From: Eledone cirrhosa
Lineage: Eukaryota
Direction: 5' to 3'
DNA length: 64,000 bases
NCBI GenBank assembly: GCA_964016885.1
Contig: OZ024742.1
Span: 283,774,001 to 283,838,000 of the forward strand
This document shows, piece after piece, positions 39,625-57,852 of this stretch (its first letter is position 1; the number at the start of each line of letters is the position of its first letter). The notes beneath the pieces were generated by a model that did not search any database, was not told the DNA's origin, and saw nothing but the letters and a program-made list of their open reading frames with translations. The translations under genes were made by a program, and so were the position numbers.

Positions 39625-39720
39625 ATACTATACATACACCTTTGACGAGTTGTAGTGCACCAGAGCACTTTATACAATAATTTCATTATTATTATTATTA
39701 TTATTATTATTATTATTGTT
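39625..39720 (+). mobile_element. CR1 3' UTR tip with (ATT)n tail, forming the left edge of the (TTA)n insertion pile
   Basis: Nearly identical to 23370-23437 (atacatacacctttgacgagttgtagtgcacc.gagcacttta.acaataatttcattattat). Confidence 0.8.
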
Positions 39721-39721
39721 G

Positions 39722-39819
39722 TTATTCCTTGAATCTCAGTCATTGATGTTGGTTAACTGGAAAGTCCGTTGGATTGAATATCAAGCCACTACCTGCAGCC
39801 TCAGATATTCAGGACGTAT
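39722..39819 (-). mobile_element. R4/Dong family A, 3' tip of about 100 nt
   Basis: Matches 42205-42302 (3' UTR plus the last codons YVLNI*). Flanked by (TTA)n. Confidence 0.85.
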
Positions 39820-39840
39820 TATTATTATTATTATTATTAT

Positions 39841-40193
39841 TTGCATTTATCTTGCTTTATGTTTATACGAGTTATCACCAAGTCACAACCAGTGACCTCA
39901 AGAGACAACAAGGTCCGCCATGTTCAAGAAAGAACATACATATTCACACATGCATCCTTAGTGTTTAGACTTGTGATGTACTTATATTGACAGGATCTTC
40001 CTTAGTATATGGGCAGTTCCCATTAGTACTATCTTTTGTATTTCTCCTATACGCGGGTTTCCTGGGATTTGCGATAAGTAGTCGTTAGACCCCTTAGGTA
40101 TCATTCCCAGAGCGCCTACAACCACTGGTATTGTTTTAGTTCTCAATTTCCACATTTTTCCAATTTCTATCTCCAGGTCCTTATACTTGCTTT
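39841..40193 (-). mobile_element. R4/Dong family B, 3' fragment
   Basis: The 3' UTR matches 54241-54460. Minus frame KYKDLEIEIGKMWKLRTKTIPVVVGALG...IQKIVLMGTAHILRKILSI*. Confidence 0.85.
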
Positions 40194-40751
40194 ATTATTA
40201 TTATTATTATTATTATTATTATTATTATTATTATTATTATTATTATTATTATTATTATTATTATTATTATTATTATTATTATTATTATTATTATTATTAT
40301 ATATATACTCTATTATTTTCTTTAGCATCCTCTTCCTCTTTTTCTTTATTTTCCTTTACATTCCCATTCTCTGACACACCCACAAAAAAGTCCGTTCCTT
40401 CCACACCTAAATACATACATACATACATACATACATACATACATACATACATACATACATACATACATACATACATACATACATACATACATACATACAT
40501 ACATACATACTTATTGACTTCATTGAATGAGTACGCACACTTCTATATACGGCGGTAATACCTGTTTGAGAACAACACAACCGACGACAGCGCGTAAACA
40601 CCAGACGACAACCTGAAAACGGCAGAAAAAATGCTGGCACAAATATTGACCATCTTGGCAGCTTTCAATGCCACCCTAAACCAATATGGGTATGAAGCAC
40701 ATCCTTTCGCAGTAAGTAATTATTATTATTATTATTATTATTATTATTGTT

Positions 40752-53500: not shown

Positions 53501-53932
53501 GCCGTCAGCCGGGCATGTCCGAGATGCGCACAGGGCGACGAAACCGTCCTGCATGCACTCGTCCAGTGTCCGAGAATTGCTGACTTGTGGGTTTATGTCA
53601 AACACCTGCTGTCACGTGTAGGACGGATCCAGATATCAGCTGAGTCCATCGTGAGAATTGCCCCGCCCTCTTCCTTTAGCCAGGAAGGGCAGGCAGTTTT
53701 TATTTGTCTGGTGGCCATGGCGAAAGAGATAGTATGGTGGACACGTTTGAAAGGGCTGAAGACGAGCACTTACCTCTTCGGTGATGCCCTGATTAACTTT
53801 TTCAAATTTCATTTGAAAAGGAAAATCAGGGTAGAGAGGGAAGTGCTCTTTTCCCAGCATTTTGTTGAAAGATGGGTGAGAGAAGCAAGTATGGCCCGAA
53901 TGAATGGGCCTTCTCTGAGTATGTGTCTGTAA
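50515..53932 (+). pseudogene. Tx1 ORF2: APE endonuclease, RT and C-terminal zinc finger; frameshifts and stops in the APE/linker part, intact 760-aa RT frame
   Basis: IGSINARGL, VAISET, VAVYAP, LVGDWN, SYLDRVF, YTDH (APE); KSPGLDG, NFRPITLLN, LDQSKAFDRV, VRQGCPLS, AYADD, GGLG; CPRC...ETVLHALVQC. Confidence 0.92.
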
Positions 53933-54236
53933 ATTAAAGGTGGAAAACTGGGAGAGGGCACTTGCCCTGGTGGTCAGGGTCACTGTGGTCTTTTAATGGG
54001 CTTTCTCCACAAATGTCCCTCGGAAGTCTCCCTCCTATTGGGGAATTTTTCTTTGTTATTTTATTACATCCTCTGTTTTTTTACACGCAGAAATGCCCAT
54101 TTGTACCGTCCTGTATTGTCATGTACTGTCCTTAATGTCTACTTTATGTGAACCCTTGTGGTTAATAAAGAAAACATTATTATTATTATTATTATTATTA
54201 TTATTATTATTATTATTATTATTATTATTATTATTA

Positions 54237-57200
54237 CAGCTGCATTTATCTTGCTTTATGTTCATACGAGTTATCACCAAGTCACAACCAGTGACCTCAA
54301 GAGACAACAAGGTCCGCCATGTTCAAGAAAGAACATACCTACTCACACATGCATCTTTAGTGTTTAGACTTGTGATGTACTTATATTGACAGAATCTTCC
54401 TTAGTATATGGGCAGTTCCCATTGGTACTATCTTTTGTATTTCTCCTATACGCGGGTTTCCTGGCATCCATTTTTTATTATGTTGGCTTGGTAATTTTTT
54501 GTTGGCAGACACTGATCTTGTGCTGATATAATCAGTCCTTCAGTCTCCGATTTCAGTCCAGAGGATGTTAACCACTGATGGGTTAAAGTTTTGTCAACAT
54601 CAGGATTGTTAGCTCGTTCTGGGTATTTTCCATACAGAGGCTTTTCTTGCCATTTCTTAGTCAGTTTCTGTAGCAGTTCTTTCTTTGCAGTTACTTTTAC
54701 CTGCTTTGCTTTTTCTGTGTTTTCCATTTCAGCAGTAAATGGGACTTCTGAAATATGTAGTCCATTACTGTATCTTTGTGCATCTTTTGTAATGGAGTAT
54801 GATCTTTTGATGCTTTCGTGTTTCAAAACGAGTTTGATCATCCAATCATGTGATTCCCTTAGATATGTAGATAATCCAATTGTTGCAGTTTTCAACGCAA
54901 TGTCTAACTGGATTAACCCACGTCCTCCTTCTTTCCTAGGGAGATATATTCTCTCTGTATCTGCCTTAGGGTGATGCATTCTGTGCATGGTTAAGAATTT
55001 TCGAATTTTTGTATCGAGCCTACGGATCTCTGTGCTTGACCAGTTGATGACATTGTAACTGTAGGTTACTACTGGTATGGCAAGCGTGTTTATGGCATCG
55101 ATCCTATTCCTTGCATTCAATTCCGTTCTTAAGATTGCTCTTACTCTGCGGTAACATTCCTTCCTTATCCTTTCCCTCATTGTCGAGTGCTTGATTCCGT
55201 CTCCTTCACAAACACCTAGATATTTGTAAGCTTCCTCTTGATCAAGTTCTCTTATCAAGTTCTCTTATCACATTCCCTCGATCAAGATTAATGTCTGAAC
55301 TTTTCAGCAGCTTTCCTCTGGTGAACGTTGCTTTGGCGCATTTATCTAGTCCAAACTCCATTTTAATGTCATCACTGAACTGCTCCACAGTGGATAATAG
55401 CCCTTGCAATTGTTCATCATTTTTTGCAAATAGTTTCAGGTCATCCATGTAGAACAAATGATTAATGGTTTTGTCATAGACTTTATATCCATGTTTTGTT
55501 TCATTGAGCATTTTACTTAATGGTATAAGTGCGATGCAGAATAAAAGCGGTGATAAAGAGTCACCCTGAAAAATTCCACAATTAATATTAACTTCTCCAG
55601 CTTCCAGTGATTTTGTTTCACTATTCAAAAGGAGTGTCGTTTTCCATGTCTTCACACTGAATGACAAAAACCTCCTGACAACGGGGGATATTTTGAAAAT
55701 CTCTAAACATTTTTCAATCCAACTGTGTGGCAAACTATCGAATGCTTTTTTATAATCTATCCAAGCAATTGATAGATTTTTGTGTCTATTATGACAATCT
55801 TCCAGTATCATTTTGTTAACCAAAAGCTGATCCTTACAGCCATATGAGCCTCGTTTACACCCTTTCTGCTCAATGGGAAATAGGTCATTTGTTATCAGGT
55901 GGTCATATGTATATTCAGTTAGGACTGATGTTAAAATTTTATACATTGTGGTCAAGCAAGTTATCGGTCTGTAATTTTTGGGATTGTTTGTCTCATCATT
56001 CTTCGGAAGCAGGAATGTAATGCCGTTAACTAGCCATGATGGTATCTTTTCTGGCTCCTTAACTATTTCATTGTAAAGTTGGGCTAACAGCTCATGAGAC
56101 TCTGTGAAGGCATTTATCCAAAAATTTTGTATTTTATCTTTTCCTGGGGATTTCCATTTGCTGGTTTTTCTTAGAGCCAAACGCAACTGTTCAACTGTTA
56201 TATTTTCCCATATTTGTTCCTCAAGGTGAGCTGTATCTTTCATTTGTCTGTCTATCCATGGGGCATGTATATTATGAACTTTTTCTTCGGCCCAGATCTT
56301 TTCCCAGAATTCTTGCACTTCCTCCTTGGGTGGTATTGATTTAGCAGTTATTGTTGACTTACCAATTTTTCTGTAGAAGTTTCTTTGGTTGGTTTTGAAC
56401 ATATTATTGTCCTTATAGAATCTAGATCGTTTTTCAAAGCGCCTTATACGAGCAGCTTTGGCCGACACTTTTTGCTTGATTATTTCTATCAGCATGCCTA
56501 TGTCACTTGTTGGTTTTATACTGTACTTTCTTTTCAATTTTCTAAGTTTAGTTTGTTTAACATGTTCACCTACTTTATATTTTTTTAAAATTTCTATGTC
56601 AGATCGGAGAAGGTTTATTTGGCGATTGATGTTCTCTTGCCAAGTAGATTTCTTGTGGGAATTCCTTTGTTTTTTCATCTTCACTCCACGTAAGTGAGTG
56701 GTGACTTTAGCCGATGCATAATAGAGATGATTTAAATCAGTAATGTTTAGTTTGTTTGTGATGATAATGTTTTTGATAATTATGTTAGTCTTGTGTATTA
56801 TCTTTTGGTTTTGTTTGGAGTTCTGGATCTTAGGGAGGGTGTCTCGTTCCCCCATGTCAGATTCTTTCATTTTCATCCATTCGATCATAATTTCATCCTT
56901 CAAGTTGGCAAGTTCATTCTCATTCATTTCTTTATCATTTACGATCTCATTGTTTTCATTTGGAGTTTCATCTTGAGCATGCACTCCTTCCACTTTTTCG
57001 ATCCTTTCTTTAATTTGTTCTGTTGTCAGTGATTCCGCCCCAACCCTGGGATTCGAAGTGTTACAATTTACCTCGTTTTCACTGACACATGTTTCATTTT
57101 CCCTTCGCTGACTTTGTGCTAATAGCTTGATCTGATCAATTTCTATATCAGTTAGTAACTTTTTTTTTTACAATATTTCTTCGTATATTGGCTAGTTTGT

Positions 57201-57790
57201 TACTGTCAATATAGCCTCTGTTTTCGGGATGTTTCTTTTTCCAGTTGATATATGTCTGTTCTGTATTCGATGTATTTGATGGGTAGTACATGGCAGTGTA
57301 GAAAGCCTCAAGGACTTCTCTATTATCTTCCCTTGACCATTTTTCTCTCTTTTTCTTTGGATTTCTTGGTGGTGAGCATGGAGGGCCAACAGTAGGAGTA
57401 TTCCGGTTATAGGAGGTCTCCAGCTCCGAAGTGATGGGAAGGTTTGAACCATTAGCTGATTTTTCGACCCCAGTCTGGTTCCTCTCTGAGGGACGCGGCC
57501 CTTTTTTACCCGGGTGACGGCCGATCCGGTTTGAGATTTTATCATTAGACATTTACTTTATTTTGTCGCGTTTTATCCTTATCCGCCAAGGGGTAATCAT
57601 TTCGTGTTACCACTTCTAGAACGAGTGTCAACCAAGACTAGAGGGGTCGCTCTCCCCTAGAGACACGGCTATTCCCCGCCGGCCGCCATCCCGATATTTC
57701 TTGGTCACGGGGTTTTCTTTTTTGTTGTTTTTTGAAATTGTTATTATCATGAGTGGTTCCTTAATGTGAGCATTGCGTGGCTTAAGAATG
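54237..57790 (-). mobile_element. R4/Dong family B element with intact 5' end but a deleted zinc-finger/endonuclease region
   Basis: ORF pieces 57552-57148 (KREKWSREDNREVLEAFY), 56993-55242 ([33 protein letters not shown]) and 55258-54446 (YKYLG, GGRGL, SAQDQCL). The 3' UTR matches 39841-40062. Confidence 0.9.
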
Positions 57791-57852
57791 AAATTATTAA
57801 TAATTGTCTCCACTCCAGGCACAAGGCCAGCAATTACCCAGTGCATTACAAT

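What the first reader, a model, noticed from the sequence alone, without database searches (positions are those of the whole stretch)
39685..57800. 18-kb pile of ten LINE insertions in one (TTA)n tract with strict family-specific polarity
Seen: left to right DongA(-), DongB(-), [unknown], Tx1b(+), DongA(-), DongA(-), Tx1a(+), Tx1b(+), DongA(-), Tx1a(+), DongB(-). Nearly every junction is a (TTA)n run, and no element interrupts another's body. All six restriction-like-endonuclease elements are minus and all four APE elements are plus. Established: Dong (R4 clade) targets (TAA)n, and several Tx1 families are sequence-specific (for example to (TC)n, (TTC)n, U2 snRNA, 5S rDNA). Inference: two unrelated endonuclease classes share one microsatellite target, cutting opposite strands and regenerating the target on each insertion, so the array grows itself.
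Basis: partly seen in the sequence, partly recalled or inferred. Interest (0 to 1): 0.78.

Follow-up and report, generated by a model that had tools for sequence, protein, structure and literature searches.

The report
Self-growing polarised TTA-microsatellite retrotransposon arrays
In this genome, likely an octopod's, two unrelated kinds of jumping gene sit by the thousand in the same TTA triplet repeat, nearly always facing opposite ways, and likely build their own landing sites as they insert; they form piles of up to about 50 kb, and this 18-kb pile lies mostly inside the first intron of a spliced vitamin-B12-processing (MMACHC-like) gene.

Summary
Observation confirmed, with corrections. 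Ten LINE pieces lie at 39716-57852: six restriction-like-endonuclease (Dong-like) copies, all minus, and four APE (Tx1-like) copies, all plus, joined by (TTA)n. It is not one tract. The 'unknown' is exon 1 of an MMACHC-like gene, spliced across a 44.8-kb intron, and the right edge is (TTC)40.

The rule holds genome-wide:
- 1546 of 1687 Tx1a 5' ends follow TTATTATTATT; 0 follow TAATAATAA.
- 11 of 21 truly truncated Tx1a copies have TTA upstream, against a background of about 0.2%.
- Dong 5' ends follow (TAA)n in 28 of 30 full-length and 76 of 95 truncated copies.
- Neighbours within 15 kb share polarity in 125 of 133 pairs, against 33 of 68 at more than 100 kb.
- The four 3' motifs give 19,471 hits, and arrays reach 40-50 kb.

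Dong on (TAA)n, Tx1 on other microsatellites, opposite insertion (TRAS/SART) and APE/RLE target sharing (Keno/Utopia) are known. I found no paper on a (TTA)n-targeting Tx1 or on mixed polarised arrays. Whether the endonuclease or RNA-target pairing picks the strand is untested. New variant of a known kind.

The parts
39615..39685 (+). 3' end of a dispersed retroposon that ends in (TTA)n elsewhere; likely seed of the left run (a tRNA-type SINE 3' part lies at 39503-39620)
   Evidence: same 3' end followed by at least 3 TTA units in 6 of 6 other deduplicated copies
39686..39715 (+). (TTA)10
39716..39818 (-). DongA 3' stub
   Evidence: 100% identical to copies elsewhere
39819..39839 (+). (TTA)7
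39840..40191 (-). DongB 3' stub including the end of the RLE domain
   Evidence: 99.7% to copies elsewhere
40192..40299 (+). (TTA)36
40515..40711 (+).
   Evidence: paralogous exon 1 on C5, E 3e-4; one contig joins 40711 to exon 2 and on to exon 3
40720..40752 (+). (TTA)9(TTG)2 starting 8 nt into intron 1; the paralogous gene copy 107 kb away has (TTA)5 at the same place
40753..41166 (+). Tx1b, 5'-truncated
41168..42177 (-). DongA1, 5'-truncated; degenerate TTA/tail at its left end
42178..42195 (+). (TTA)6
42196..44816 (-). DongA2, 5'-truncated; open 854-aa frame with RT, CCHC knuckle and PD..D..K motif; 99.9% identical to another copy
44817..44912 (-). 97-bp copy of 42082-42177 with the same truncation point as DongA1; fits a long target-site duplication around DongA2 (single case)
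44913..44966 (+). (TTA)18, head-to-head junction
44967..45356 (+). Tx1a 3' stub
45357..45367 (+). (TTA)3TT
45368..46299 (+). Tx1b, 5'-truncated
46300..46317 (+). (TTA)6
46318..48262 (-). DongA3, 5'-truncated, frameshifted, 94.6% to DongA2
48263..48294 (+). (TTA)10TT, head-to-head junction
48295..54176 (+). Full-length Tx1a: ORF1 with zinc knuckle; ORF2 with APE, RT and CCHC; frameshifted in this copy
54177..54236 (+). (TTA)20
54237..57852 (-). DongB, lacking about 0.8 kb of its 5' end and about 490 bp internally at 54467
57853..57972 (+). (TTC)40, right edge of the array

Best explanation
Dong-like (RLE) and Tx1-like (APE) LINE families of this genome sit in the same (TTA/TAA)n microsatellite in opposite orientation, and they likely insert there by target-primed reverse transcription from opposite strands, each insertion likely leaving a run on both sides so that polarised arrays grow.

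Steps:
1. Seed (partly shown). A short (TTA)n exists, often as the tail of a SINE or other retroposon, or, here, 8 nt into an intron.
2. Orientation (shown). Tx1-like copies read TTA on their sense strand at both ends; Dong-like copies read TAA.
3. Primer strand (follows from the established mechanism, in which the bottom strand primes). Tx1-like elements prime from the (TAA)n strand, Dong-like elements from the (TTA)n strand.
4. What picks site and strand (inferred, about 60%). The endonuclease nicks within the repeat, and a few repeat units at the RNA 3' end (UUA for Tx1, UAA/CAA for Dong) pair with the nicked strand. Tx1a has AATAAA 7 nt before its end, and all 60 audited copies are followed by a TT-initial sequence, not poly(A); so its UUA units are likely read through from the flanking target.
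5. 5' joining (phase shown, cause inferred). Full-length Tx1 5' ends join at a fixed phase, TATT|G, which suggests annealing to the upstream run or a fixed top-strand nick.
6. Growth (inferred). The run is split, and a short duplication plus slippage restore both halves. Each insertion adds a target without breaking a neighbour, so arrays grow by preferential attachment over several waves.
For: Full-length Tx1a: 1546 of 1687 5' ends preceded exactly by TTATTATTATT, 0 by TAATAATAA plus 0-3 nt; 30 of 30 sampled have a TTA run. Second 5' module: 2511 hits, 30 of 30 sampled with TATT|G. Beyond that upstream run, 21 of 30 loci show another retroelement end in array polarity (13 plus-strand 3' ends, 8 Dong 5' ends). 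None shows a true opposite end; 1 is a low-complexity hit and 8 have no hit. So the run is the neighbour's run, not cargo carried by the element.

Truncated Tx1a, focal audit of 60 loci: 21 truly truncated after I set aside 3 full-length copies with deletions or a diverged head, 1 chimera and 1 edge case. TTA 11, related repeat 3, none 7, TAA 0; background 0.18%.

Dong 5' ends: full-length TAA 28 of 30; truncated TAA 76 of 95, GAA 3, both 1, none 15, TTA-only 0.

Clustering (C1 0-53.6 Mb, 228 3' ends): neighbours within 15 kb concordant 125 of 133 (Tx1-Dong pairs 52 of 56); over 100 kb apart 33 of 68. 186 of 228 ends lie in clusters, against a null mean of 27. Cluster sizes fit a geometric law better than a truncated Poisson (LL -154.9 vs -174.3; -144.4 vs -148.5 without the largest).

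Same-polarity arrays of 40, 10 and 50 kb lie at C1:37.10-37.22 Mb. The paralogous MMACHC intron has the same TTA seed and a different 13.3-kb array.
Against: 7 of 21 truncated Tx1a copies have no repeat upstream although most have long TTA downstream. 15 of 95 truncated Dong junctions were scored 'none', some of them alignment artefacts. 8 of 133 close neighbours are discordant, and one tail-to-tail Tx1a pair flanks a TTA run (L104). (TTC/GAA)n replaces TTA at several 5' junctions, including this array's right edge. Elements are sometimes interrupted elsewhere (SINE in Tx1a: L076, L224; Tx1a in Tx1a: L077). The C1 array holds duplicated blocks, so unequal exchange adds to growth. Unequal target quality would also give over-dispersed cluster sizes. 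Sampled loci are the first listed hits on contig C1, found by exact motifs, so they lean to young copies. No empty allele was seen and no biochemistry was done.
Confidence: 0.8

Rival explanations
1. The Tx1-like APE is only a relaxed TpA nicker, like human L1 endonuclease. Target and polarity come from RNA-DNA pairing: read-through (UUA)n at the RNA 3' end can prime only on a (TAA)n strand, and (UUA)n at the 5' end anneals to the upstream run. Arrays still grow, but this is not an endonuclease with a new sequence specificity.
For: TpA steps lie on both strands of the repeat (sequence). Full-length copies are far stricter (92%, fixed phase) than truncated ones (11 of 21). L077 entered a (TTG)-rich run with a 16-bp duplication that overlaps the element's last bases and has no TTA tail. 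3' annealing aids SART1 and R1 (PMC7265360, passages).
Against: Truncated copies lack any 5' repeat of their own, yet half sit behind TTA with junctions compatible with the same TT| phase. For TRAS1/SART1 the endonuclease is the main determinant (PMC7265360; PMC4494074, passages).
Confidence: 0.3
2. Tx1-like copies insert without regard to sequence and carry TTA at both ends. Only Dong targets the repeat, and clustering reflects Dong entering Tx1 tails plus tolerance of gene-poor regions.
For: Dong 3' ends often abut Tx1 tails; 7 of 21 truncated Tx1a copies lack upstream TTA.
Against: 21 of 30 full-length Tx1a 5' runs are directly preceded by another element's end in array polarity, 13 of them non-Dong 3' ends. 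Truncated copies show TTA at about 50% against 0.2% background. The paralogous intron holds an all-Tx1 array.
Confidence: 0.06
3. The window array is a segmental duplication or an assembly collapse.
For: DongA1 and the 97-bp piece share a breakpoint; the C1 array has repeated blocks.
Against: Window copies differ in truncation point and in age (nearest relatives 95.8-100%). Exons on both sides of the array splice correctly. The same grammar recurs across C1 and C3.
Confidence: 0.03

Closest known systems
Dong (Bombyx, Anopheles, Biomphalaria) and Rex6; R4 clade
   Same: One ORF with RT, CCHC knuckle and PD..D..K endonuclease motif; insertion in (TAA)n (PMC3812793, PMC1635306, passages). Dong-R4 is abundant and recently active in Octopus vulgaris (PMC13282606, passages).
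   Different: Two families only 40% identical in protein share a 5' head and co-occupy arrays with an APE family; at least 14,701 3' ends.
Kibi, Koshi and crocodilian Tx1 families
   Same: Tx1-clade APE LINEs that target microsatellites: (TC)n, (TTC)n, (TTCC)n, (TTTC)n (PMC4494074, passages).
   Different: The target here is (TTA)n, with (TTC)n only occasionally; the host is an invertebrate; the target is shared with RLE elements. Kinship to Kibi or Koshi could not be tested.
TRAS1 and SART1 of Bombyx
   Same: Two LINE families enter one simple repeat in opposite directions (PMC7265360, passages).
   Different: Both are APE elements of the R1 clade (clade recalled) confined to telomeric (TTAGG)n. 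Here the enzymes are of two classes and the target is a dispersed microsatellite.
Keno (Tx1, APE) and Utopia (RLE)
   Same: Unrelated endonuclease classes evolved specificity for one site in U2 snRNA genes (PMC4640811, passages).
   Different: There the target is a gene and both families have the same 3' flank, hence the same orientation. Here the orientation is opposite and the target survives insertion on both sides.

Membership tests
R4 clade / Dong | Single ORF: RT followed by CCHC knuckle and PD-(D/E)xK restriction-like endonuclease, no APE | tested here: met
   1141-aa intact DongA frame; CX2CX8HX4C and RHD in both families; RPD..D..K..RY/KY motifs; no APE Pfam hit; best solved relatives are R2 proteins
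R4 clade / Dong | No N-terminal zinc fingers (sets R4 apart from R2/NeSL; criterion recalled) | tested here: met
   no CxxC motif seen by eye in the N-terminal part of the 1141-aa DongA frame
R4 clade / Dong | Insertion into (TAA)n in element sense | tested here: met
   28 of 30 full-length and 76 of 95 truncated 5' junctions
R4 clade / Dong | RT phylogeny groups with named Dong, R4 or Rex6 | not testable with these tools
   none of the 120 listed homologues carries such a name; atlas clusters are unnamed; no tree was built
Tx1 clade (L1 group) | ORF1 plus ORF2 with N-terminal APE, RT and C-terminal CCHC | tested here: met
   PF03372, PF00078 and PF13966 over cut-off; best solved relative is human L1 ORF2p, E 5e-51; ORF1 with CX2CX4HX4C knuckle
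Tx1 clade (L1 group) | Target-sequence preference (common in the clade) | tested here: met
Tx1 clade (L1 group) | RT phylogeny groups with named Tx1, Kibi, Koshi or Keno rather than L1 | not testable with these tools
Kibi / Koshi | Target (TC)n or (TTC)n | tested here: not met
   TTC at 2 of 45 truncated and 0 of 48 full-length deduplicated 5' junctions
TRAS / SART | Telomeric-repeat target, both partners APE | tested here: not met
   target is a dispersed (TTA)n and one partner is RLE; works like it, is not a member
MMACHC (PF16690), host gene | Profile match over cut-off and exon 1 spliced to the matching exons | tested here: met
   exons 2-4 at C3:283.860-283.867 Mb over cut-off; contig joins 40711 to exon 2; exon 1 alone gave no Pfam hit

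The most novel reading that the evidence does not exclude
An undescribed (TTA)n-specific Tx1 lineage whose APE domain reads the TAA strand, together with two Dong lineages reading the TTA strand, forms a mutual target-breeding system. Every insertion multiplies the site for all partners. The result is thousands of polarised 5-50-kb arrays that inflate introns and may account for many of the TE hotspots and a measurable share of genome growth in octopods.
Probability: 0.45. Interest if true: 0.72.

Novelty: new variant of a known kind. Interest (0 to 1): 0.58.

Why it matters
It offers a concrete, sequence-level mechanism for TE hotspots and long introns in cephalopod genomes. Hotspots are reported in Octopus vulgaris, but the section I read gives no target-based cause (PMC13282606, section 8). 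Here 17 kb of a 44.8-kb first intron of a spliced gene is such an array, and its paralog built a different one on the same seed.

It adds a likely new target, (TTA)n, to Tx1-type APE elements, in families that appear mostly full-length and have intact ORFs. That makes a long-standing question directly testable on one DNA substrate: whether the endonuclease or RNA-target pairing sets site and strand, with an APE and an RLE enzyme side by side. Precise, orientation-fixed, full-length insertion into a neutral repeat is also of interest for gene delivery.

Tried and rejected
- DNA-mode genome search returned only 8 candidates, so I switched to exact patterns.
- The 'unknown' as a further TTA-tailed element or a Penelope fragment: rejected; it is a host exon. 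Pfam on the exon peptide alone gave nothing.
- The C5 MMACHC paralog as an empty-site control: it has no TTA at its donor, so it is uninformative.
- Self-cleaving ribozyme at the conserved 5' heads: no Rfam match of note in 7 loci and no hit with a simple HDV-like descriptor.
- Long target-site duplication as a Dong rule: only the one 97-bp case; the 98-bp piece in L084 is not a duplication of the flank.
- Empty or polymorphic alleles: not found. The run search listed no RNA holder on record and three holders from one study; the one RAD run laid gave no reads.
- RT tree with named references: not built, because the homologues carry no family names.
- Earlier scan notes: none.
- Literature: ten searches listed no paper on a (TTA)n-targeting Tx1 or on mixed Dong/Tx1 arrays. 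Kojima and Fujiwara 2004 and Xiong and Eickbush 1993 are not held. Repbase and Dfam entries could not be seen and may already note this target; no supplements were read.

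
Full report
Setting. The window lies at G000:C3:283,774,001-283,838,000 of a 3.0-Gb genome. It is 35% GC and rich in dinucleotide repeats. A piece of the Tx1-like ORF2 matches an Octopus sinensis protein record at 66% (P0057), so I infer an octopod host; the species was not determined.

Observation. The rest of the window has only three (TTA)3 runs and one (TAA)3 run. Two junctions (44913, 48263) join two 5' ends, so their TTA cannot be a tail. Corrections: the right edge is (TTC)40 at 57853-57972; 44817-44912 repeats 42082-42177 and shares DongA1's breakpoint; and the 'unknown' is host DNA.

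Host gene. 40541-40719 has one other match in the genome, 107 kb away at 77%. Both end in GTAAGT followed by TTA. A PF16690 search found three MMACHC-like exon sets, one with exons 2-4 at C3:283.860-283.867 Mb just beyond the window. The window peptide aligns with the first exon of the C5 copy (E 3e-4), and exon 2 opens in phase. A 478-nt contig of run X3 (library not on record) carries the window exon up to 40711 joined to exon 2 and exon 3. So 40720-57972 lies in a 44,797-bp intron 1 and 39686-40299 lies upstream of exon 1: two seeds, not one tract. The C3 paralog has (TTA)5 at the same place followed by a different, all-Tx1 array of 13.3 kb. Its first Tx1b copy is 89% identical to the window's first Tx1b, while the exons are 77-79% alike, which points to independent insertions after the gene duplicated (inference). 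The C5 copy has no TTA at its donor.

The elements. DongA and DongB are 40% identical in protein. They have RT, a CCHC knuckle and a PD..D..K motif and are nearest to R2 among solved structures. An intact 1141-aa DongA frame exists on C1. Tx1a has an ORF1 with a zinc knuckle and an ORF2 of about 1140 aa with APE, RT and CCHC, nearest to human L1 ORF2p. Full ORF2 frames without stops occur in 8 of 80 long loci, which are 6 distinct copies. Clade labels could not be tested against named references. Exact 3' motifs occur 2880 (Tx1a), 1890 (Tx1b-type), 9992 (DongA) and 4709 (DongB) times, 19,471 in all and a lower bound.

Is TTA a target or a tail? Of 1687 Tx1a 5' ends, 1546 are preceded exactly by TTATTATTATT and none by TAATAATAA plus 0-3 nt. 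A second 5' module on the same ORF2 has 2511 hits, and 30 of 30 sampled show TATT|G. The upstream run could be cargo, so I looked past it. In 21 of 30 loci it is preceded by another retroelement's end in array polarity; 8 had no hit, 1 had a low-complexity hit, and none was a true opposite end. Truncated copies cannot carry a 5' repeat. I fetched 60 of the 67 listed 3' ends that lacked an exact 5' partner. The script scored 34 full-length (34 TTA) and 26 truncated. By hand I removed three that are full-length with deletions or a diverged head (L083, L094, L101), one chimera (L072) and one edge case (L087). Of the 21 left, 11 have TTA, 3 a related repeat (TTG-rich, TTC, degenerate TTA), 7 none and 0 TAA. 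Background is 0.18% of positions in 135.6 kb not chosen for these elements. For Dong, 28 of 30 full-length heads and 76 of 95 deduplicated truncated ends follow (TAA)n; 3 follow (GAA)n, 1 has both, 15 none, 0 TTA alone. Loci are the first listed hits, nearly all on C1, and favour young copies.

Polarity and arrays. Among 228 3' ends in C1:0-53.6 Mb, neighbours within 15 kb agree with the model in 125 of 133 pairs (Tx1-Dong 52 of 56; 32 of 36 without direct tail-to-tail pairs). Pairs over 100 kb apart agree in 33 of 68. 186 of the 228 lie in clusters, against 27 expected. C1:37.10-37.22 Mb holds same-polarity arrays of about 40, 10 and 50 kb, with some duplicated blocks. Cluster sizes fit a geometric law better than a truncated Poisson, as expected if each insertion adds a target, though unequal target quality would do the same. 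Free runs are scarce: three of at least 4 units in 135.6 kb. The window copies match their nearest relatives at 95.8-100%, so the pile grew in several waves.

Mechanism. In target-primed reverse transcription the nicked bottom strand primes (established), so Tx1-like copies use the (TAA)n strand and Dong-like copies the (TTA)n strand. What chooses the strand is not shown. Tx1a ends 7 nt after AATAAA and is followed by TTATTA in 58 of 60 copies and by poly(A) in none. In L077 it entered a TTG-rich run with a 16-bp duplication and no tail. I therefore think its 3' UUA units are read through from the target and pair with the nicked strand, with the endonuclease preferring the repeat (about 60%). 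The rival, a relaxed TpA nicker steered by RNA pairing alone, stays open (about 30%). Insertion inside a run leaves repeat on both sides: a median of 15 units before and 11 after Tx1a. Seeds are supplied in part by TTA-tailed SINEs and another retroposon, one of which ends at 39685.

Results against this reading. Seven truncated Tx1a and up to 15 truncated Dong junctions lack the repeat. Eight of 133 close pairs are discordant. (TTC)n stands in at some junctions. Elements are sometimes interrupted elsewhere. No empty allele was seen, and the runs found come from one study plus a RAD run without reads.

Known and new. Dong and Rex6 target TAA (PMC3812793, PMC1635306; passages). Kibi, Koshi and crocodilian Tx1 target (TC)n, (TTC)n, (TTCC)n and (TTTC)n (PMC4494074; passages). 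TRAS1 and SART1 enter telomeric repeats in opposite directions (PMC7265360; passages). Keno and Utopia share a U2 site with different endonucleases (PMC4640811; passages). Dong-R4 and L1-Tx1 are known to be expanded or recently active in cephalopods, but the passages I saw give no target (PMC13282606, passages and section 8; PMC8967140 and PMC9115989, passages). Ten searches listed nothing on a (TTA)n-targeting Tx1 or on mixed polarised arrays. Kojima and Fujiwara 2004 and Repbase were not visible. Each ingredient has precedent; the target, the combination and the scale appear new.

Verdict. A real, genome-wide feature; a new variant of a known kind; interest 0.58.

Noticed in passing
window 40515-40711; G000:C3:283.921-283.943 Mb; G000:C5:43.687-43.695 Mb: Three MMACHC-like genes. 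The two C3 copies read VKCYN at the start of exon 2 where the C5 copy reads VEWYN, so they look like derived duplicates.
   Followed up: partly
L074, L075 and others; switch point at window ~50433: Tx1a has two homologous but distinct 5'UTR/ORF1 modules on a 97%-identical ORF2 (1687 and 2511 5' motif hits).
   Followed up: partly
genome-wide: Tx1-like copies appear mostly full-length (4198 5' motif hits against 4770 3' motif hits, with 3' variants uncounted), which is unusual for LINEs (comparison recalled). Dong heads number 1179 against 14,701 3' ends.
   Followed up: partly
L255-L284: DongA and DongB, 40% identical in protein, share a near-identical 5' head of about 130 nt, and some copies carry an A-type 5' part on a B body (L256, L258). 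No ribozyme was found.
   Followed up: partly
window 44817-44912: 97-bp duplication of the flank at DongA2's 5' end, with CCT microhomology; fits a target-site duplication of over 100 bp; single case.
   Followed up: partly
L114:4658-4754, L073:1320-1420, L100 (element-sense coordinates): Short inversions of 97, 101 and about 13 bp at or near the 5' part of Tx1a copies, as twin priming would give.
   Followed up: no
window 57853-57972; L079, L081, L118, L210, L217, L060: (TTC)n often adjoins the arrays in the same polarity as (TTA)n. One diverged Tx1-like copy (L118) is followed by (TTC)16, so a Koshi-like TTC family may exist here.
   Followed up: no
window 39101-39206, 39503-39620; DongB 5' region 57798-57850: An abundant tRNA-type SINE with a short (ATT)n tail. 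A 50-bp piece resembling its 3' end is a fixed part of the DongB 5' region.
   Followed up: partly
window 35089-36789 (+) and ~61940-62317: 566-aa open frame and a fragment that look by eye like Penelope-type RT/GIY-YIG; no Pfam hit at E 0.01 for the long frame.
   Followed up: no
window 58778-60588: About three tandem copies of a ~647-bp unit (96-98% alike); one inverted copy lies near C3:283.938 Mb inside the paralogous gene.
   Followed up: no
window 20232-22121: 1.9-kb degenerate (AT)n array with a 15-bp higher-order unit.
   Followed up: no
G000:C1:37.10-37.22 Mb (L221-L235): Same-polarity arrays of about 40, 10 and 50 kb within 120 kb, with repeated blocks that suggest unequal exchange.
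   Followed up: partly
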